Position numbers and translations under genes: made by a program
Notes under the pieces: generated by a model
Told to the model about the DNA's origin: nothing
Seen by the model: only the letters and a program-made list of their open reading frames with translations
The model's database searches: none
In this document: positions 9,378 through 54,500 of the stretch, piece by piece
Layout of the letters: each line of letters opens with the position of its first letter
Numbering within the stretch: the stretch's first letter is position 1
NCBI RefSeq assembly: GCF_006345805.1
Contig: NC_043000.1
Coordinates: forward strand, 111,042,001-111,106,000
From: Octopus sinensis
Taxonomy: Eukaryota
Length of the DNA: 64,000 nucleotides
Direction: 5' to 3'

Positions 9378-10180
9378 CCTTTCTATTATAGGTACAAGGC
9401 CTAAAATTTGAGGGATTGTCGATTACATCGACTCCAGTGTTTCACTGGTACTTAATTTGTCGACCCTGAAAGGATGAAAGGCAAAGTTGACCTCGGCGGA
9501 ATTTGAACTCAGAACGTCAAGGCAGACGAAATACCGCTAAGCATTTCACCCAGCGTGCTAACAGTTCTGCCAGCTCACCGCCTTATGTTATTCTTTTCTA
9601 CTCTAGAAACAAGGCCCGAAATTTTGGGGGAGGGGGCGAGTCGATTAGATCTACCACAGTACACAGCTGGTACTTAATTTATCGACCCCGAAAGGATGAA
9701 AAGCAAAGTAGACCTCGGCGGAATTTGAACTCAGAACTTAAAGTCGGACGAAGTACCTATTTCTATTTCTTTACTACCCACAAGGGGCTAAATACAGAGA
9801 GGACAAGCAAGGACAGACAAAGGGATTAAGTCGATTATATCGACCCCAGTGCGTAACTGGTACTTATTTAATCGACCCCGAAAGGATGAAAGGCAAAGTC
9901 GAGCTCGGCGGAATTTGAACTCTGAACGTAGCGGCAGCCGAAATACCTATTTCTTTACTACACACAAGGGGCTATATATAGAGGGGACAAACAAGGACAG
10001 ACAAACGGATTAAGTCGATTATATCGACCCCAGTGCGTAACTGGTATTTATTTAATCGACCTCGAAAGGATGAAAGGCAAAGTCGACCTCGGCGGAATTT
10101 GAATTCAGAACGTAGCGCCAGACGAAATACGGCTAAGCATTTCGCCCGGGGTGCTAACGGTTCTGCCAGCTTGCGGCCTT
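9378..10180 (-). mobile_element. Composite of four nested family B SINE units
   Basis: Units 9378-9584, 9589-9756, 9757-9946 and 9947-10180. TSD-like GTTATTGCTGAAATAAT (9361) / GCTATTGCTGGAATAAT (10183). Confidence 0.85.
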
Positions 10181-18184: not shown

Positions 18185-18371
18185 CAATGTATATATATAT
18201 ACTAGCATTAAAGACCCGTCGTTGCCGGGTCATAGTGCTAGTGCATGTATATATGTGTATATATATGTGTACATATTACATGTACATCTATATATATACA
18301 TCTACACATAAAATACAAAATACAAAGTTATATCTTGATATCGCTAGTGATAACGATACTCAAAATATATA

Positions 18372-18691
18372 ACAGACTGGAATTGTTAGCCCGTCTCTTG
18401 TAATTTCCATCAATTGTATCTTGTCCTCCCTCTTGTATAGAAGTGTGGCTACAATCCAGCCTACCTCTACTTCTGGGGGGAGGAAGCATTTTAAATTTTA
18501 TTCCGGTACGTCCTACGTCCCAGATATAAAGGTAAAACTAAAATATGTCCACTTTGCAAGTTCGAGTTGAGTACTCCCTTGCACGCTCCGTTGACTCGAA
18601 ACTTGCTTCTATTGTGGCAAATTTACCGCCTCTGATTAGATACCTTTCATAGTCGCACCAAGACGCTTTTCGAAGGTGCTTTCCTCCATGT
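18372..18691 (-). pseudogene. Tx1-family ORF1 remnant (downstream half of interrupted element 0)
   Basis: MEESTFEKRLGATMKG / YLIRGGKFATIEASF / VLPLYLGRR / PPEVEVGWIVATLL aligns with ORF1 at 24982-25479. Confidence 0.7.
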
Positions 18692-18867
18692 TGATTTATT
18701 ATTACCCACAAGGGGCGAACATAGATGGGACAATACAATCTGGGTCAGACAAACGAATGGGTTTTTACAATAAATCGGATTTAAAAATTTTCATGAATTA
18801 CAATAAATGGACAGAAATCGAATGATGGGACAGACCGGAAGACATTACGGGTGGAGTGGGTGCGGGT

Positions 18868-21800
18868 TTAGCTCGGACCCCACGAGCCCCGCCTCCCCAC
18901 TGATACTTTTGGTTGCGCTGGTATTACGTATGTTGTATCTTTCACTCGCAACTTTCGTGCTACATCCTTCCATCGTTCTTCATACACTCTCCTAGTCAGG
19001 CATATTCTCTCCAGCCCTATCTTCCTTTTCAGGTGAAAGATGAAATAATTCATCAAACCAGGGCCGGAGATGAACTTGCCTGACTGTAAACCTTTCATTC
19101 TCGTCTTCCATATCACCTCTTTCGCAATTGCTACTACAACGAGAAAACGAAACTTACCTTCATTCACGAGGAAATCCGGTGGGTCAATTTTTGTAATCGA
19201 CTCAGTCGACAGCTGTACTCTTCGTGTACCTGACAACAGGTGTTCGGCATAAACCCACACCTCAGACACGTCCGACAATGAACAATAGCGTGCGGGACGG
19301 TTTCCCTATCCCGCCCGCATCTTGGACATATCGGACTGTCTTGGCCACCGTGCCTTGCGAGTTTATCCCGAAAGGTAGAGCTCCTCTGTAGCATTGCCAT
19401 GCCAGAGACTTCTGGAAGTTGTCCAGTGTCTCGGCTCGAACGTACGTCGGAACAGACTGGCCAGCTGATTATCGTCGAGACCTAGGGTTTCCCCCAAGGT
19501 ATCTTCACATTCCGCCTCTACCAACCCTCTATAGAGGAATGTGGTGGAACCCCCACCGCAGGCGTTGCCCGAGCGACGGAATAGCAGGAGAGCCTTGCGA
19601 CACTCCGTGTACCAAGTACCACCAAGTTTCGATCTACGATTCAGCCAGGTTTCCCATCCACCGAAACTAGTGAACTTGGGAAACATCAGTTTTGCTAGCG
19701 AAGACCACACCCGTTCACCATCCAGGTAGAGCCACAGATGTCTTAACCTCAGCGCATGTCTGCGCATCATCAGCCAAGGCATCCCTAGCCCACCCTTTAA
19801 CGGTTGTTGACAGCAAGTAGAGCGTTTCACAAGTGGTTTCCCGCCCTTCCACAAGAAGTAGAAGAGCTGTCTTTTCAACTTGATCAACCACGAGTCAGGG
19901 CAAGAGCGACGGAAAGGCGGTAGGTGATAACCGATGCGATAAACCATTGGCCACCTCCGCCCTCCCTTTCAGGGATAGCCACCGCCAAGACCAGGTCTTG
20001 GCTACTGCAGCCACCTTGCTCGTTACCTCGCCCCAATTCTTCTCTATTTGGAGGTCTGGACCGAACCAGACCCCTAGCAGTTTAATCGGACCCTCCGTCC
20101 AACGTCCCACGACGCTGTCAGGAGGCATCGACTTGCCTCTCCAGGTGCCGAGTTGCAAGCCGACTGACTTTTCACGATTAACTTTTGCTCCTGTCACCGT
20201 CTCGTAAACCTCTATGGCCTTGCCTACTTTACATAGGTGGTCCATTTCGGTTACGATGATGGTGATGTCATCCGCGTACGCTGACACTGATTTTCCATTA
20301 CCTGGCTGTCTCGGGATGCCGCTCAGTTTTCGCAGTAATGGCTCAAGAGCCATCACGTACAAAAGCGGGGAGAGCGGACACCCTTGACGAACCGAGCGTT
20401 TGATTTTGAACGGCTTCGACAAGAAGCCGTTCACCCGAACTACCGAGTCGATGTTATCATAAATTTGGATAATCCACCTGAGGAAGCCAAGGCTCAGCCC
20501 GAACTGTGCCAGGGCAGATACCAGGTAACGATGGTCGACCCTATCAAAAGCTTTAGATTGGTCTAAATGGACCAGTGCCCCGCCCTTGCCAGAATCACTA
20601 TTAAACCCCTCTATAGTGTACCGCATTAGATGGAGATTATCCTGAATGGATCTGCCCGGAACGGCACATGTCTGTGCCTCTCCGATCAGACCATCCGCGA
20701 CACGCGCCAATCTTTTCGATAACACTTTGGCCAAAATCTTCAACTCTGTGTTTAGCAGAGTGATGGGCCTGAAATTATCAATGCACTCCCCCTTGCTCGG
20801 GTCCTTTCTGACGAGAGTCACTACTCCCCGGCGCACAGATCTGGGTATAAGCCCGTTCTGCTGCCAGTTCGCATAGACCTCCGCCAGTAGGTGCCCGAAC
20901 AAGTCTGGCATACTCTTATATAACTCATAGGGTAGACCATCCAAACCCGGCGCCTTGCCCGCGCCGCAGTCCGCCATTGCCTCAAACACCTCCCCAGGCG
21001 TGATTGGCCCTTCACAGCCCCTCCGCATCTCGCCCCGATAAGCGCGGCAGACCGTCGAGTAGGTCCGTAAAGGCCCTCCTCCTATCCAGTCCGCCGCACT
21101 CACCGAAAAGCTGAGCGAGCGAAGTGCTCCTGAAAGGCCTCACACATCTCCTCGGGTTCGTTTATCAACTCACCTTGTTGGTTCGTCAAAGATCGAATCG
21201 TGGCATCGTTACCATGCTGAGCTTCCACCACTCGGGCCCATCTCACGGCGTTGATTCCTTCACATCCCACATGACGGATTCTAGCCCTGACAATGCAGCC
21301 CATGTGTTTGGCCTCGAGGTGCTGGTTTAACACCAGTCTCTTGGACGCCACCTGAGCCGCAGAGCCAGTTTTCATGGCTTCCTCTAATTCCTTAACTAGA
21401 GTAGTTTCCCTTCTAGCCTCTCTAGCCACTACTCCTATGCTATATCTAATAGACTCAAACTTGATGGCTCGTTTGAGGGCGTACCACCATTTGTTATTAA
21501 TGATGGTACCAGATAGTGCCCTCTGAATTATATTCCTAATCCGGTCTTTGTACTCCTTAATCGCCAAAGGGACGTATTAAGTTTCCAGTAACCGGATCCT
21601 CTATTTTTAACCTTATCTATGTCAAGCTTACAAGTGACCATTTTATGATCACTGTAGCTGATCGGGTAAAACTGTGGACACTTAGCTATTTTACTGTCTA
21701 CTTTTCTAATTAGTATTCTATCTAAATATGACCTGGAAGATCCGTCGCTGTTTGACCATGTCCACAATGGAGCGTTCGGAAATTCCAGCCTATAAGGATC

Positions 21801-22323
21801 TGCTAGCTCAAAGCGGCTTAGCAGTTCCATGAAGCCACTGTTGCCTTTTCTATCTGGACACGAGCCAACATAATCTACATCCGCTTTGCAAATTGTGTTA
21901 AAGTCTCCTAGCACCACTAATGAATGCGAAGTACCAAGAAAGTTTTCTAGTTCAAAAATAATCACTTTGCCCTGTATGGTTGGGTGCGTAAATGCAAACC
22001 AGTCTGATAACTTTACCATTACTGAACGTCAAATCCATGACGACCAGCCTACCTTCTGGATCTGCAAAAATTAACTTTTTCTCAGAAACCCGGTTTCTTT
22101 TTAATAGGACCAACACCCCACTCCCGCCTGTAGGACTGCCAGGAGAGAAAAAACTCTCGTAGCCGTCAAACAGCGGGAGTAGACCTCTTGGCCCCTCTAA
22201 CCGGGTTCTGTAGCAACAATAACATCTAAATTACGCGACCTGATGTCATGCAGGAAGCGACCTTGCTTCCAGCCTGCTCCCAGGCCGCGCACATTCAAAC
22301 AACCAACATAAATGTAATCCCAT
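18868..22323 (-). pseudogene. LINE ORF2: AP endonuclease-reverse transcriptase-zinc finger (frameshifted)
   Basis: CLNVRGL, LGDFN, SYLDRIL, YSDH (APE); APGLDGLP, FRPITLLN, DQSKAFDRV, RQGCPLSP, YADD (RT); GGLGMP; CPRCG...ETVPH. Confidence 0.92.
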
Positions 22324-22329
22324 TGCTTA

Positions 22330-23692
22330 CCTTATATCAGTGGTTCGGTTTTCTCTTGTTCTTCAAACTCTTTTTCTGGGCCTCGTGGGGAGTCTGACGT
22401 AGGCCCTCGAATATATGTGGAGATGTTACATCAACCTAAGTGGGGCCTACGTCATGGAAGAATTCTGACTTTATCCGCCCGTAATCCCTCCGGTCTATTC
22501 TGTAAATTACAAAGTCATTTTTTTTTCTACTTTCTCTACTTTGGCCATGGCTGCCAACACGTTTCCGAGCCTGCTATTTGATGCTTTTACGGCCATATAT
22601 GCGTTCATTGACTCTTTTTTCTTTTTTAAAATTACTCTGGGAGGTGTGGTTTCCGTTTTTCTTTTTTTTTTTCCGATAATTTTTTCCCACCCCTCCTCAT
22701 TTATCTTTTCCTCGCTCTTTTTTTTTTTCCGCCGCTGGTTCTGCTGTCACCGTCACCTCCACACCTTCAGTCTTCCCTTCTGGGCCGTCTGACGCTGCTT
22801 CTGGTGACACATTGTCTTCTTTTTCTTTTGGCTTAGGTGCTTCCTGCGGTTTGGGTTGGGGTTGGCATTCCGCCTTACATGCCCTTCTTGCCGCAGCCGA
22901 AGCACCTCGGTTTCCTGCCCTCCACGAACACTGTTATTTCTCGTCTTCACTAATCTTTACCGTTTCTGGAATTTCTTCCAGTGTTTGCACCTCCGCCTGA
23001 ATGGCTATCACTTTTTTTGGCCTTTCCAAAAATCCTCTTCTCCACTGTGGCCTGGAGGATGTTTATTTTTTCCTCCAGACCTACCATCACTGCTGCACAC
23101 CAGACATTCAGCATCAGCCTCTGGCGGTATGTTGTTCATTGAAATTTTGACGTCTTTTTCCTTTATACAATGGTAGTAAGACAATGTTTTCCGCTTTGAT
23201 CGGCTCCATCGATAGTTTCTTCGCTACATCCTCCGTAGTAAAACGCACCTCCACTGTGCCGTATCTTTTCCTCTGTTTATATACGTTATTTGTCCAAAAG
23301 GTTTTAGACAAGACTCTATTTTTTTTTCTTCGATTTTTTGGATCATTTTTTCGTTGTGTCGTAAGTTTTATATATATTCTTTTTTTCTCTATATCGTCAT
23401 GTATTTGTATGTTTGTGGCCACAGTCACTTCTGTGCCTTCTTTTTACGCAGTCTGCAAATTTTTTAAAATTGTCTATATTTATTTTTTTGATCTTTTTCC
23501 CAGCCACTTCAGCGAATTTTTTTGCTGGAGTTGATGCTGGTACTGGTTTTTCCATTTCTTGGGCGACGCCGCCTCTTTTTTTTCGGCGACAGCGCCTCTT
23601 TTTTTTGGCGACAACGCCTCTTTTTTACTTGGCGACAACGCCGGGTATTCATCCTCGCTCGTCACGGGCGAATAAGAGATGGGGGACTCCAT
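22330..23692 (-). pseudogene. LINE ORF1 (zinc knuckle), frameshifted
   Basis: YGTVEVRF..., LPLYKGKR, VFVEGRKPRCFGCGKKGH; Lys-rich. Confidence 0.7.
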
Positions 23693-23919
23693 CTTGAACA
23701 AATGGCTTTAACAAGCCTTTGGTAAATCCAATTAATTGTAGTTTTCCCCCACTGAGGGGGGAACACCAACGCGAAGTCTTCGCGCGAAGGCTGACTTCGT
23801 CCGTTAGACAATAATAGACAAAAACAGGTAGACCAACAGTATATAATAACAGAGATAATAGTACGAGAGCAAAAATATATATCAACTTACTAATAACGCA
23901 AAAATGATTTCCTCCATGT

Positions 23920-25834
23920 TGTTTTATTATTACCCACTAGGGGCTACATAGATGGGACAATACAATCGGGAAAATGAATAATGAGTTATGAAGTTTGTAC
24001 AATGTGGTGCAATGCCCACTCGATCCCCGAAATCGAGCGGTTACATTTCGTCATTTATTTTTATTCGTCAACAATATTTTCAAATAAAACATTTTATACA
24101 TTTTCAGCATACATTTCAAAAAGTTTACAAGTTCAACATCTTTTTTTTTTTTTTCCGAATTAAAGTTCTTTTTATCATTTACAAATAAAGTTTTCACAAT
24201 ACTTTTCTTTTATATATACTCCATTATGTCTACCAAATCTGAGTAAATTTCCATCGTTCGAGGCCACCTTGGAAGTCGGCATTTCATATGTTTTAACACG
24301 TTCTCGCCAGCTGCCTCGATGAACGCCTCGGCGTCGTTCTCGTGGACGAGTGCACCTGTTTCTTTCCATTCGGTGCCCATCCTGACCCACGTATATCCGT
24401 TTGTTTCGCTTATTAAATTTTCCATCTCCTCACAGTGCTTGTGATGGATCAACGTTCCATAGTATTTGAATTTTCTATTCGTACCTGCGTTTTCTCTAGT
24501 TTTTCTCTTAGGACTTACTTCCTCTTTTTTCTCCTCCCTCGGTTTCTCTCTTTCTCTCTTTTTGCTTTCTCTTCTTTCTTTTTCCTTCTCTTGTCTTTTT
24601 GGCTCTTTGTCTGCCGTCTCTCTACCCTGTGCCTTAAGTTCCTTTCCTGTTGTTTCTTTTCCTTTTTGCATACCATCTTTTCCTTTCTCTCGGTTCTGTT
24701 CCTTCTCTTGTTCTTTTCCTGCTTTTTCTCTTTCCTTTAATGTACTTTCCTTTTCTTTCTCTTGCTTCTGCCTTGGCTCCTTCTCCTCTACTTCTGCACC
24801 CTGTGAATTTTGCTCCTTTTCTACTATCTTCTTCCCTTTGTTTTCATTTTCCTTCAGTGCGCTGTTACTTCCCTTCTCTTGTTGTTTCTCCGTTATTTCC
24901 TTTTCCTTGTTTTCGCTGTTCTTTCCTTCGTGTTCGTTTTCCTTCTCTCCCCTTTGTGTCTCTTTTTGCTCCGCTGTGAATTCATACAGCGGACATTCCT
25001 TTTTTTTTGTGCCCTCTTGAACCGCACAGGTAGCAATTCGGTTTTCTGCCTTCCACTATTACACTAATTGTTTTTTCGTTTTCTATTTCTATTTGGAAGG
25101 GAAATCTTTCGATGTCTTCAATTTTGGCCATCAGCCACAACTCGACTCCGAATCCCTTCCAATTTACAACGTTCGTCTCCTTAATTGACCCTATTTCTAC
25201 TTCCTCTTTTGCTGCTCCAATAATGGCTGTTACCAGCATTTCTGTTTTAATATTTGGGGGCACCTTTGGGACTCTTACCCGTACCCCTCGTCTTCCTTTA
25301 TACGTCGGCCACATGGTGAAATTTTCCGCTTTCAGGACAGTGGAAGCCAATGAGGCCGCCACTTCCTTTGTTGCGCATCTCACCTCCACCGTACCATATT
25401 TCTTTCCTCTGTCCACAAAAGTCGCTTTTTTCATGATGTCCCCCAGACATTTCTCTATTTCTTCAATCGTCACTCTCACCAGTTTTCTCGTGTTTCTATC
25501 TTGCGTTCTATACGTTATCGTCTTGTTATTTTTTCTTCTATTGTTTCCACAGGCGGGACCAGCTTCACGCTGTCACCCTCCCTTTTGACGAACTTCTCGT
25601 ATTCCTTCAATTGTTCTTTTCTAAAGAACACTTCTTTTATTCTAAGTGACTCGTCACTTTTTGTTGTGGCGACCCCCGCGTAAGTCTCCATGACTTGAGG
25701 GTCGACACACCTTCTATAAAAGGTTCAAACACGCAGCGGCAAACGCCTCGCGCGATTCAATTTTTGACAATTTTTTAACAGTCTTTTTTCCAAAGTTTCA
25801 CATGCAAAAATAACTCACAACACACTTGGGTAAA
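23920..25834 (-). mobile_element. ORF1-only non-autonomous Tx1-related element (element 2, HAL1-like)
   Basis: 5' UTR, ORF1 and about 290-bp 3' UTR ending in the same tail as element 1. No ORF2. Bounded by target copies at 23908-23919 and 25835-25846. Confidence 0.8.
24210..25691 (-). pseudogene. ORF1-like protein: N-terminal domain, CCHC zinc knuckle, long K/E-rich region, C-terminal domain (two frameshifts in A-runs)
   Basis: METYAGVA...EIEKCLGDIMKK...YGTVEVRC...VEGRKPNCYLCGSRGHKKK/ECP...DLVDIMEYI*. Confidence 0.75.
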
Positions 25835-25960
25835 TTTCCCCCATGTGTTCGAATCTTTTTTCTCTACATTGTATACTTTATAGACAATAGTCTTTTCTTT
25901 AATTTAATTTTTTATTATCTATCTGGACTATTCCATTTCTGCACGCTAATTTTATTTTTA
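25835..25960 (-). pseudogene. Upstream half of interrupted ORF1 (element 0)
   Basis: KEKTIVYKVYNVEKK/RFEHMGE joins the segment starting at 18691 and aligns to KTITYRTQDRNTRKLVRV of element 2. Confidence 0.6.
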
Positions 25961-26651
25961 ATTTATTCCCATTCATGTGAAACCACTTATTCAAGTTCAA
26001 GTCATTGATGCAATTTTATACCAATTGCTATTTTTACTTTTGTTATGTTACGATTATATTATACTTTAGTTTGATTTTAATTATTACTTACTACATATAA
26101 TTCAATTGTTATTATTATTTTTATTGTTAAAGTGAAAGTATCTGACATCAAATAGAGAAGCGTTTTTGTTTCACTTTTAACACGTAATACTGAAATAGTG
26201 GAGAAGATATGATATTGCTATGGGCTCGCTCTAGGCAAGAAGTTGAACATTTATTTTGCCCATGAAACTACATGGACCCTAAGTAAGGCAAGTGTAAAAT
26301 TTGAATGAAATTGGTTGTGTAGTTCTCAAGTTTTAGGGAATCGTAGTGGAGAAGATATGATATTGCTGTGGGCTCGCCCTAGGCAAAAAGTTAAAAAATG
26401 TTTTTGCTGATGACACTCCCCGGACCCTAAGTAAGGCATGTGTAAAATTTGAATGAAATTAGTTGTGTAGTTCTCAAGTTTTAGGGAAACACGCAGACAG
26501 ACAGACAGACATACACACATTCTCAGTTTTATATATATAAAGATGTGTTTGTTTGGGGATGTGGGAGAAAGACTTGTCCAAGATGCCATGCAGTGGATTA
26601 AACCCAGAAACATGTGGTTATGCAGCCAACCTCTTACCACGCAGCTACAAC

Positions 26652-26707
<56 letters not shown>

Positions 26708-29700
26708 TGTGTGTGTGCATGCATATGCGCGCGTGCTTGTATGTATGTATGTATGTGTGTATCCTTCCTTTTTTGAGCGTTCAACTCATGACGGAATAAG
26801 GTTGTCATCATGGTATACTCTGCATCTCGGACTTCTAAATCACGTTGTTGCTGTCCGTCTCCAGATCCGACAACAACCGTTTTCTTTCAGATCAAATCCT
26901 GGACTGCTTTGAAAAGGGATTTGAACTTAGAGTACAGAGAGCCATATCACGGGTGCCAGAAACCATTTTAGCCTACTGTATAACAACTTTCATTTGGCTT
27001 AGAGTGTAGCCAGGTCTTACAACTTGCAATCATCACGAGGGGGAAGTCGTCAGACTGAAGCTAACTTCCGGTTATTAGTTGCAAAATCCCCGAAAAGCTT
27101 TGTAGATGCAATCCTTGCTAGTTATCTGCAGGAATTTGCTCCGCTCTTTGATTATGAGCAATGTTACCAGCTCATTGCGTATATAAAGGTTCTTCTTATT
27201 GTTCTTCGCTACGAAAGGTCGAGCTTCACACAATTTCCGCTCAGGAGACATTCTCTTTTTAAAATCATAAATATTTTCCGTTTTTTTTTGTTTTAATTAA
27301 GAGGATAGATTACATATGACTGTGTGACTGAACACATTTATTTTACGTGCTTATGAATGTGTATGTGAAACTGTCAGTATGTAGGCATAACGTATATATA
27401 CATATATGTGGTTATGCAGCCAACCTCTTACCACGCAGCTACAACATATATATGTTTTTTAACTTTTTGCCTAGGGCGAGCCCACAGCAATATCATATCT
27501 TCTCCACTACGATTCCCTAAAACTTGAGAACTACACAACCAATTTCATTCAAATATATATTTGGATAGACATAGAGAGATAGATAGATAGATAGATATAG
27601 ATATATATATATACACACGCATACATATATATATACACACACATTCATATATATATATATATACATAAATACATACACACATACATACATATATACATAC
27701 ACATACATACATACATACATACATACATGCATACATACATACATACATACATACATACATACATACATACACACATACATACACACATACATACACACAT
27801 ACATACACGTGTGTATTTACAGTGTGAGAAGGCAGCTGAACTACTAAATCGTGAATTCTGTTATCCAAACTCTGTTTATATTAGTGAGAAAAATCTCAGA
27901 AATCCCTAAACAATCTTAGGGAACAATTGAAGGAATTAAATGAGGAAGTTTGCATTGCAATAAGATTGCAGCTCCCAATTGGCTGAGATCGATGGTGAGA
28001 ATGGAAACCTGATTTATTCGACACAGCAATTATGGTCGAGAGAAAACATACAACACTTGATATTTCGTTGTGACATCATTGATTTTTGTTTTAGAAAATC
28101 TTTTATTAGGATCAAATAAAAGTTCAAAGCCCATTAAAAATCATTAGCTCATTTGTGAAGTCGTTATTCGACAATATTTAATACTTTCATTGACATAACC
28201 ATTCATGTCTGTTTGCTACGTTACGTTTAGAAATCTTTGTGGAAAACAAACGAAACACGTTTAGAAACTTTTATTTCTCTTTCTTTTTTGTTTATATATA
28301 TATATTTCATTTATTAAAAACAAGACACACGTTTTGGAACATTTTATGTCAACAGATTACGAGCGAAGTTGTTTTTGTCTCTGCAAATCGCAGTCCGTAT
28401 CATAAAGGTCGGTCCAGTTTATTGAGAGAACCCGGACGATGTAAGACGTTAATGTGTTTATTAGAGTTGATAACAAGTCCAGTATACCTGGTGAACTGTA
28501 TAAACGATATAATTAGCAAGCAATAATGTTTTAGCTTCGTTTCTTTAACGATTGATGCTATTTCTATCAAGATTCATTTTTTGTCATTCATTTTATGATT
28601 GCTTGATTACGTCGGGCAGAAAAAAAAACATTCTGTAAAACCTCCATAAAAACTTTGAGAAAATATTTGATATAGGTTAATCTGTGTTTTGATAACTGAA
28701 ACATGATCGATATTGATAATTAATGAGACCAAGAGGACAGCACCTGTTATGTACTGTGGTTCATATTGTTCCTTACTTCTACCCGACCCCGCACGAAGGA
28801 GCACGAAGGAGCGATTGTATAACACACACCACTGAAAAAGGTGTTTGGAATTAAACAGCTTTCATTATAAACAGCATAATTGAAATATTCAAAAGAGGAC
28901 CAATAATTCTTCCCGAATCACACGTACATAAGGCCGGTCTTCTGGATTCTGTGGCGTGTATACTCTACCCACCCCGCCGCCATCTACTGGACGGGACGTC
29001 AGTTCATCGCTGAGTTATTCCTTGTAGCCAGTAACATGAAACGAAGCGTTTTGTTCAAGAATACGACGCATCGAAACCACAATCTTACGACCATGAATGC
29101 AAAACCCTAACCCGAACCACAAAGCAATGCGCTTTCATGATTGGAATACTAGTCTTTTACAGGTAAATCTAAATTTACAATGCTTCCATTTCTGTCTCGC
29201 TCGCCTTCCTATTCACTCAATAAACTTTTTATATCTTCTCTACATTTCTCTTCGTTAAAATACATAAGCAAGAAAACACGCATACAGCCAAACCACTCAG
29301 GTCCCTAACATAAAACCAAATACACCGCATACACAACATACTACAACAAAAGTGTTGAGATTGGAAAAAATGTTAACAAAATGGAAAAACATTACAAAGG
29401 TAAACTTACCAGCAGGGGAGTTTCCCTCCAATAAAATGTGTGTCCTGATAGACATAGCAAAATTTTAAAAACTAAAAAAAAACTTTCGGATCTGATATAG
29501 ACCCCATAGGGACGAAGGTGGAATTTGATACCCTGTCTTCTGTCATTGAACGCAAGGAAGGGGAAACACTCACAAAGTATGTAACTGTTGCAATGAACTT
29601 GTAAGAAAAATCAATTGTATTAAATGTCACAACTCGAGTGCAGGGCTCGAGTAGCCATTGCACATTATTTACATTTGACGGATATTTGTACTCGTCTTGT

Positions 29701-44563: not shown

Positions 44564-44800
44564 AAGGCGGCGAGCTGGTAGAAACGTTAGCACACCGGGC
44601 GAAATGCTCAGCGGTATTTCGTCTGCCGTTACGTTTTGAGTTCAAATTCCGCCGAGGTCGACTTTGCCTTTCATCCTTTCGGGGTCGATAAATTAAGTAC
44701 CAGTTACACACTGGGGTCGATGTAATCGACTTAATCCCTTTGTCTGTCCTTGTTTGCCCCCTCTATGTTTAGCCCCTTGTGGGCAGTAAAGAAATAAGAA
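44564..44800 (+). mobile_element. SINE family B with Tx1-like tail A, TSD present
   Basis: Full length; flanked by AAGAATATTGG(C/T)CAAAAAT at about 44540 and 44796. Confidence 0.9.
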
Positions 44801-53750: not shown

Positions 53751-53792
53751 GAATCTCCTTTTCGATTCCTTCTGGTTATGGCGATCATATAT

Positions 53793-54019
53793 CTTTACTA
53801 CCCACAAGGGGCTGAACAAAGAGGGGACAAACAAGGACAGACAAAGGGATTAAGTCGATTACATCGACCCCAGTGCGTAACTAGTGCTTAATTTATCGAC
53901 CCCGAAAGGATGAAAAGCAAAATCGACCTCGGCGGAATTTGAACTCAAAACGTAACGCAGACGAAATACGGCTAAGCATTTCACCCGGCGTGCTAACGCT
54001 TCTACCAGCTCGCCGCCTT
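53793..54019 (-). mobile_element. SINE family B with Tx1-like tail A
   Basis: TTTACTACCCACAAGGGGCTGAAC tail; flanked by TGGTTATGG(C/T)GATC. Confidence 0.9.
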
Positions 54020-54500
54020 GGTTATGGTGATCTTGAAATTAAAATAAGCAGACTGTCTGTGCGGTATTAAAATGAAAACAGTATTATTAATAAATGGAGC
54101 AGCTGATACGATAAAGAAGATAAACGGTAACCTAGAAAGTACACCAGGACAAAGAATTCTGCACAAGGGTTAAAAATAACCCTCCTAGACACTGGTCATA
54201 TCTTTCCTACACAGGTCACTGGCAATTCAATAATACTACTTATATAATGGCCTTTCTATACGTCTCATACAACGCTTATTGCACATATACTCTTCACAAT
54301 CGTCATCCGACCAACACAAAACATACGGCATCTACTCTACGCCATCATACTCAATAAAACAACACATGCATACAGTTCTATAATCAATATCCGATGAGAT
54401 GACACGCGCCTTATACACTAATGACGACTCAAACAACTCATATCTTACAAAAAGTAACAACAAAATCAGGGAGCACCAAATCGAATGATAATAAAATATA

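What the first reader, a model, noticed from the sequence alone, without database searches (positions are those of the whole stretch)
18372..25960. Tx1-like retrotransposons inserted twice at one 12-bp site inside the ORF1 of a relative
Seen: TTTCCTCCATGT at 18680-18691 and 23908-23919 and TTTCCCCCATGT at 25835-25846 separate a full LINE and an ORF1-only element, head-to-tail on the minus strand. Joining the outer flanks gives KTIVYKVYNVEKKRFEHMEESTFEKRLGATMKG (one A-run indel allowed). This aligns without gaps to KTITYRTQDRNTRKLVRVTIEEIEKCLGDIMKK of the inserted ORF1. The two inserts lack the 12-mer at the homologous position. Known: Tx1-clade elements are often target specific, for example Xenopus Tx1L inserting into Tx1D, and others into snRNA/tRNA genes or microsatellites. 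Inference: this family targets the ORF1 coding sequence of a sibling lineage while avoiding itself. I do not recognise this kin-targeting arrangement as described.
Basis: partly seen in the sequence, partly recalled or inferred. Interest (0 to 1): 0.85.

Follow-up and report, generated by a model that had tools for sequence, protein, structure and literature searches.

The report
LINE guild nesting inside a Helitron
In an octopus-like genome, a LINE retrotransposon and three ORF1-only relatives sit again and again at one site inside a roughly 1.1-kb Helitron-type DNA transposon, a site that lies within a decayed piece of their own clade's ORF1, and they likely stack there head-to-tail because each copy's 5' end recreates the target.

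Summary
In detail: the 12-mer occurs three times, separating a 5.2-kb LINE (E1) and a 1.9-kb ORF1-only element (E2), and the rejoined flanks are ORF1-homologous (z 8-33). Targeting is real: 80 of 90 sampled tails of E1, E2 and a further family E4 sit at this site or in front of another member's head. But the host is not a LINE. It is a ~1.1-kb non-autonomous Helitron (A|TC...hairpin-CTAG|T; at least 965 empty sites) carrying a frameshifted ~345-bp ORF1 relic. Inserts are about ten times younger than their hosts (31 of 31 loci), so they inserted independently. The 12-mer is not a plain target-site duplication: off-target duplications are 16-18 bp, and elements carry GAGGAAATC-like heads of their own. 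They therefore do not avoid themselves; they insert in front of each other's heads, in arrays of 11 or more units. A live sibling ORF1 with a 10/12 match is not hit (0 of 100 listed). Tx1 elements targeting DNA transposons are known (piggyBac, Mariner, Harbinger). A Helitron target, inside a relic of the clade's own ORF1 and shared by several ORF1-only partners, was not found in my searches. New variant; interest 0.55.

The parts
25847..26543 (-). 5' half of the non-autonomous Helitron host: A|TC start, (GTCT)n microsatellite, two 145-bp tandem units (26196-26340, 26344-26488)
   Evidence: contiguous with the 3' half in 26 of 30 loci
25847..25903 (-). 5' piece of the ORF1 relic (KTIVYKVYNVEKK); approximate outer edge
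25835..25846 (-). host/E2 junction: first 4-5 nt likely from the host, the rest likely the E2 head (one mismatch to the host 12-mer)
   Evidence: split is inferred from other loci
23920..25834 (-). E2: 1.9-kb ORF1-only non-autonomous LINE; ORF1 about 25691-24210 with zinc knuckle, frameshifted in this copy
23908..23919 (-). E2 tail / E1 head junction 12-mer (regenerated target)
18692..23907 (-). E1: 5.2-kb Tx1-like LINE; ORF1 about 23692-22335, ORF2 (APE, RT, C-terminal CCHC) about 22322-18928; frameshifted in this copy
18680..18691 (-). host target 12-mer ACATGGAGGAAA at the 3' junction (nick inferred just 5' of it on the sense strand)
18402..18691 (-). 3' piece of the ORF1 relic, several frame breaks; approximate outer edge
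18202..18679 (-). 3' half of the Helitron host, ending in hairpin GACCCG..CGGGTC (18231-18213) and CTAG|T
   Evidence: (z -5.1, 0 of 200 shuffles)

Best explanation
A Tx1-like LINE (E1) and ORF1-only relatives (E2, E3, E4) sit at one site in a non-autonomous Helitron and in front of each other's 5' ends, likely placed there one by one by target-primed reverse transcription. Steps: (1) shown - the Helitron holds a frameshifted ORF1 relic of the same clade and spread to well over 1,000 copies, now about 4% diverged. (2) shown - the inserts are about 0.4% diverged, so they came later and separately. (3) inferred - the ORF2 endonuclease nicks at |ACATG (off-target consensus ACATGT) and cuts the second strand 16-17 nt downstream. 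(4) inferred - transcripts start in the upstream duplication, so each element carries a GAGGAAATC-like head; this pairs with the overhang, shortens the apparent duplication to 12 nt and rebuilds a target. (5) inferred from shared head tags - the next copy inserts in front of that head, so arrays grow at their 5' side without breaking earlier copies. (6) inferred - E2 and E3 borrow E1's ORF2 through the shared tail; E4 may use another partner, since it usually removes 8 bp of target.
For: Tails on target: E1 25 of 30, E2 26 of 30, E4 29 of 30; E1 heads 29 of 30. Helitron ends: 25 of 25 starts follow A, 61 of 62 ends precede T; hairpin. Host vs insert divergence 4.2 vs 0.34% (16 of 16), 4.4 vs 0.42% (4 of 4), 3.75 vs 0.53% (11 of 11). 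Duplications of 16-18 bp at 7 of 10 off-target copies. Off-target full-length E2 begins with GAGGAAATC in L097 and with host-derived GAACACATGG.. in L096. 5' junction tags differ from the host allele in single loci such as L101 and L102-L103. Neighbouring heads share tags in 8 of 14 arrays vs 2.0 shuffled, 0 of 10,000, also across families. One host base matters: ACCT is 13 of the first 100 occupied sites but 596 of 965 empty ones, odds ratio 10.8, with similar subfamily ages. On-target E1 copies are mostly full length (22 of 25 seen whole) against 1 of 5 off target.
Against: No biochemistry or transcript start was tested. Tail samples are the top 30 of 40 scored hits, so biased to young copies close to the query; they include the window itself and near-duplicate loci. 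10 of 90 tails are off target; 2 of 10 off-target copies show no duplication and 1 only 12 bp. Two truncated E1 copies sit on the host's 3' half with no 5' half upstream (L143, L154), which this model does not explain. ACATG alone is far too common to give this specificity, so the extra determinant is unknown. Same-family runs (L108-L109) could be tandem duplication. The tag test used a regular expression that missed some arrays and caught two false junctions. No autonomous Helitron partner was sought. Tx1 membership lacks a tree with reference families.
Confidence: 0.8

Rival explanations
1. Kin-targeting (first reader, revised): the ancestral target was the ORF1 of a sibling LINE; a Helitron captured that stretch and multiplied it, so the family now mostly hits the decoy.
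For: The site lies inside the ORF1 relic, same strand, not at its edge. The relic is a separate lineage, 31-44 of 112 residues identical to six clade ORF1s. A Helitron that both carries this clade's ORF1 and is this clade's target is unlikely to be pure chance (inference).
Against: No LINE carrying this ORF1 was found. Live sibling E4 with a 10/12 match: 0 of 100 listed sites occupied. The host allele linked to the ancestral-looking Ile codon is the poorly used ACCT (13 of 14), while the preferred ACAT goes with a Phe codon (35 of 37), which suggests the strong target arose after capture.
Confidence: 0.2
2. Recycled nest: the clade already targeted this Helitron lineage; an old member inserted, decayed to the relic and was amplified by the Helitron; a chance ACATG in the relic, plus head capture, became the new site.
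For: Explains same clade and same orientation without ORF1-specific targeting; Helitrons lose internal sequence (PMC3288121, passages); a subfamily deleted across the site exists (133 matches); preferred allele looks derived. Compatible with the best explanation; it concerns origin only.
Against: No old tail, head or duplication was seen at the relic's edges; the site is internal to the relic.
Confidence: 0.4
3. Hitchhiking: one or a few LINE insertions were copied around the genome by the Helitron.
For: Identical E4 5' junction in most E4 loci; slight clustering of occupied hosts on the tree, 29 of 500 shuffles as low; two loci lacking the host 5' half.
Against: Inserts are about ten times younger than hosts in 31 of 31 loci; occupied hosts need 17 changes on a 69-row tree and are one clade in 0 of 200 bootstraps (star-like, weak); array content differs locus to locus.
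Confidence: 0.04
4. Primary self-targeting: the elements evolved to insert before their own heads, and the Helitron site is only a look-alike that seeds arrays.
For: 43 of 90 tails precede a family head; an E4-like copy sits in an E4 head (L160); an abundant SINE with the same tail is often followed by its own internal sequence.
Against: Arrays whose ends were reached lie inside the Helitron, and one E2 carries host-derived upstream sequence in its head (L096), pointing from target to head rather than the reverse.
Confidence: 0.2

Closest known systems
Xenopus Tx1L in Tx1D (non-autonomous piggyBac); crocodilian Tx1-Mar and SINEU in Mariner-N4_AMi; Tx1-9_AMi in Harbinger; Tx1-8_Crp and Tx1-4_AMi in LTR elements (PMC4494074: passages and part 3 of 5 read)
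   Same: APE-type LINE with preference for a fixed site in a multicopy transposon; non-autonomous partners share the target; tandem insertions sandwich a duplication; 5' extension derived from the target is reported for SINEU-2B.
   Different: Target here is a Helitron, the site lies in a relic of the clade's own ORF1, the partners are protein-coding ORF1-only elements, arrays reach 11 or more units, and the wave is very young.
HeT-A/TART/TAHRE arrays; HAL1; Ag-Sponge (PMC5537684 and PMC5786205, passages)
   Same: ORF1-only non-autonomous LINEs; mixed same-direction head-to-tail arrays with autonomous partners.
   Different: Those derive from Jockey, L1 and CR1 clades and HeT-A adds to chromosome ends; here arrays are internal, in a transposon, with endonuclease-type duplications.
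Non-autonomous Helitrons with captured fragments (PMC3288121, passages)
   Same: 5' TC, 3' CTRR, subterminal hairpin, insertion between A and T, captured fragment, internal deletions.
   Different: The captured piece is LINE ORF1 and is a hotspot for that LINE clade; the fold extends the stem to the terminal CTAG.

Membership tests
Helitron (non-autonomous) | 5' TC preceded by A | tested here: met
   25 of 25 distinct 5' ends matching the strict motif
Helitron (non-autonomous) | 3' CTRR followed by T | tested here: met
   61 of 62
Helitron (non-autonomous) | Subterminal hairpin near the 3' end | tested here: met
   z -5.1, 0 of 200 shuffles
Helitron (non-autonomous) | No target-site duplication or terminal inverted repeats | tested here: inconclusive
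   None seen in printed ends, but many flanks are TA microsatellite and no formal test was run
Helitron (non-autonomous) | Autonomous Rep/helicase partner with matching ends | not tested
   No search made
Tx1 clade | ORF1 plus ORF2 with APE endonuclease and RT, L1-group architecture | tested here: met
   Pfam; closest relatives APE-RT-zf-RVT; best solved structure human L1 ORF2p
Tx1 clade | RT phylogeny groups with reference Tx1 families | tested here: inconclusive
   Same 331-aa region scores 281 bits to a protein named 'Transposon TX1 uncharacterized 149 kDa protein' and 117 to human L1; no tree with Repbase references, which were not available
Tx1 clade | Target preference (more than 20% of flanks one repeat, criterion in PMC4494074) with duplications | tested here: met
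   80 of 90 tails; 16-18 bp duplications at 7 of 10 off-target copies
Tx1 clade | Endonuclease nicks the target in vitro | not testable with these tools
   Needs a bench assay
ORF1-only non-autonomous LINE (HAL1/HeT-A type) | ORF1, no ORF2, 3' tail shared with an autonomous LINE, dispersed copies with duplications | tested here: met
   E2, E3, E4
Sibling LINE as host ('element 0') | Host continues into zinc knuckle, ORF2 or LINE tail | tested here: not met
   Homology stops about 280 bp after the site and the host ends in hairpin-CTAG in the loci examined

The most novel reading that the evidence does not exclude
A three-level parasite chain: a LINE lineage evolved to insert into a sibling LINE's ORF1; a Helitron captured that very stretch and made more than a thousand decoy sites; the LINE guild now nests there, while Helitron subfamilies with a one-base change (ACCT) or a deletion of the site largely escape.
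Probability: 0.2. Interest if true: 0.8.

Novelty: new variant of a known kind. Interest (0 to 1): 0.55.

Why it matters
It offers a very young (about 0.4% diverged), many-copy natural experiment on how LINE target specificity arises and is kept: about 1,100 countable host sites, a single-base allele with roughly tenfold lower odds of occupancy, a target-less subfamily, and head tags that record insertion order. It extends transposon-in-transposon targeting to rolling-circle elements, and links capture by a Helitron to creation of a safe haven for the captured clade. Practically, these nests will confuse repeat libraries and gene annotation in octopus (several ORF1s are annotated as uncharacterized genes), and the endonuclease is a candidate for studying site-directed TPRT.

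Tried and rejected
Search for an intact source LINE: a 33-aa relic query returned 150 scored hits of 2,973 candidates at 94-100% identity; the 30 loci cut were all host copies, and two with long open frames were E1 on the host; protein search gave no closer ORF1. This cannot exclude a diverged source. A near-target in one E4 copy proved a single variant (1 match). A tail-motif census was swamped by a SINE with the same tail (83,684 matches), so no genome-wide on-target fraction exists. The host tree is star-like and weak; the ORF1 tree does not place the relic (long-branch warning). Expression: no RNA holder listed; contigs of four runs cannot show starts. Pfam found nothing in the ORF1 frames. 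Earlier scan findings: none. Literature searches with no matching report: 1 paper, on Dada; 0; 4; 1; 2; 0; 3; also 23 and 57. Repbase and Dfam could not be searched; figure 3 and supplements of PMC4494074, which list more Tx1 targets, were not seen.
Full report
Setting. The window lies in a 2.72-Gb animal genome. The closest named ORF1 proteins, up to 88-96% identical over part of their length, are from Octopus and the closest named ORF2 from Argonauta, so I call it octopus-like.

Observation. The 12-mer occurs three times at the stated places, beyond chance. Between them lie E2 (1.9 kb, ORF1 only) and E1 (5.2 kb; APE and RT), head-to-tail on the minus strand with a shared tail. Both are frameshifted in this copy; longer open frames exist in other copies. 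The flanks are ORF1-homologous: frameshift-aware scores against E1, E2 and E3 ORF1 give z 8-33, above all 60 shuffles, for the window's flanks, one natural empty copy and the consensus of 26 empty copies.

The host is a Helitron. Of 30 loci found with the left flank, 26 are empty and contiguous; of 30 found with the right flank, 21 are empty, 8 occupied (the window among them) and 1 carries something else. The repeat is about 1.0-1.2 kb. It starts with TC after an A (25 of 25) and ends in a hairpin and CTAG before a T (61 of 62), the Helitron features given in PMC3288121 (passages). ORF1 homology covers only about 345 bp, with several frame breaks in the consensus. The relic matches 31-44 of 112 residues of six clade ORF1s, so its source is another lineage; no LINE continuing it was found. 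Exact-match counts: 369 empty ACAT sites, 596 empty ACCT sites, 128 occupied 3' junctions, 133 copies deleted across the site; reversed controls 0. The empty joined form also appears in contigs of 3 of 4 public runs.

Targeting. Two further ORF1-only families, E3 and E4, emerged. Tails: E1 19 on host, 6 before a head, 5 off; E2 6, 20, 4; E4 12, 17, 1 (30 loci each, the best of 40 scored, not a random sample, including the window and near-duplicates). 29 of 30 E1 heads are at the junction. Off-target sites start ACATGT with no signal beyond six bases (10 sites). ACCT hosts are 13 of the first 100 listed occupied sites (my count) against 596 of 965 empty ones: odds ratio 10.8, estimated occupancy 23% vs 2.7%, with similar host ages (4.1 vs 3.6%, p 0.44).

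Independent insertion. At the same loci, hosts differ from their consensus by about 4% and inserts by 0.3-0.5%, in 16 of 16, 4 of 4 and 11 of 11 loci (only loci with host directly downstream and enough insert, one duplicate dropped). Occupied hosts are scattered on a star-like tree of 69 rows (17 changes vs 20.5 shuffled; weak).

What the 12-mer is. Off-target copies have 16-18 bp duplications in 7 of 10 cases, 12 bp in one microsatellite and none found in 2. An off-target full-length E2 begins with GAGGAAATC after its own duplication (L097); another carries host-derived upstream bases (L096). In several nests the 5' junction tag differs from the host allele after 3-5 bases. So the distal part of the motif is the elements' own head. 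Neighbouring heads share tags (8 of 14 arrays vs 2.0 shuffled), also across families, while the host end keeps its own 12-mer; this points to arrays growing at the 5' side. Arrays reach 11 or more units (L108-L109) and mostly run E4, E3, E2, E1; E1 abuts the host in 19 of 25 on-target cases against 6 of 26 for E2 (p 0.0002). E4 usually removes 8 bp at its 5' junction. Nick positions, transcript starts and head pairing are inferred, not shown.

Kin-targeting. Live E4 has ACATGGAAGCAA, 10 of 12 matches, near the homologous ORF1 codons; none of the 100 listed of 119 sites follows a tail. One E1 tail is followed by E1's own internal sequence (L107) and one E1 sits before a truncated E4-like copy (L093); these are single cases. 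The weak ACCT allele is linked to the Ile codon shared with live ORF1s, the strong ACAT allele to Phe, which suggests the strong site arose inside the Helitron. Still, a target inside the clade's own ORF1 relic is unlikely to be pure chance, so capture of an ancestral kin target (0.2) or recycling of an older nested member (0.4) remain open.

Known systems. PMC4494074 (passages and part 3 of 5) reports Tx1 families in piggyBac, Mariner, Harbinger and LTR elements, tandem SINEU insertions around a duplication, and a target-derived 5' extension; PMC6719617 and PMC1950540 (passages) confirm the Tx1L case. PMC5786205 and PMC5537684 (passages) cover ORF1-only LINEs and HeT-A arrays. PMC8967140 (passages) notes L1-Tx1 expansion in coleoids without targets; PMC8869645 (passages) added nothing. 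The RT region is closer to a Tx1-named protein than to human L1 (281 vs 117 bits), so 'Tx1-like' is supported but membership is not proven. My searches found no Helitron-targeting Tx1; Repbase, Dfam and that paper's figure and supplements were not seen.

Verdict. Real, well-supported site-specific nesting; host identity and the reading of the 12-mer corrected; new variant of a known kind; interest 0.55.

Noticed in passing
window 44566-44796 (+), about 53790-54040 (-), about 9760-10000 (-): A ~230-bp tRNA-like SINE shares the 3' tail of E1-E5; the tail motif has 83,684 matches genome-wide. Copies are often followed by the SINE's own internal sequence, giving ~184-bp tandem units; two window copies show approximate duplications.
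   Followed up: partly
L221 and L093 (G000:C4 near 77.064-77.070 Mb): E5, another autonomous relative (about 79% to E1 in ORF2), one copy with a ~19-bp duplication outside any Helitron; its tail variant matches E4 and the SINE, so it is a candidate partner.
   Followed up: partly
L043 860-870; 133 matches genome-wide: Helitron subfamily with about 300 bp deleted from just upstream of the target; a second, larger deletion form shows in run X19.
   Followed up: partly
L143 and L154: Truncated E1 on the host's 3' half with no 5' half upstream; in L143 the E1 is fused to a SINE head. Unexplained.
   Followed up: partly
L160, L193, L201, L203: E4 heads are entered by other copies at slightly different positions, and E4-like elements form their own tandem runs at ~1.67-kb spacing.
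   Followed up: no
L043, L053, L060, L110, L123: The Helitron itself often sits in tandem with another copy.
   Followed up: no
window 27406-27554: 100 bp identical to the Helitron's 145-bp repeat region in inverted orientation, joined to 50 bp identical to 26612-26661; may be a local rearrangement.
   Followed up: no
L095 1376-3181: A more distant LINE (69% to E1 ORF2) with a different 3' end lies upstream of a truncated E1.
   Followed up: no
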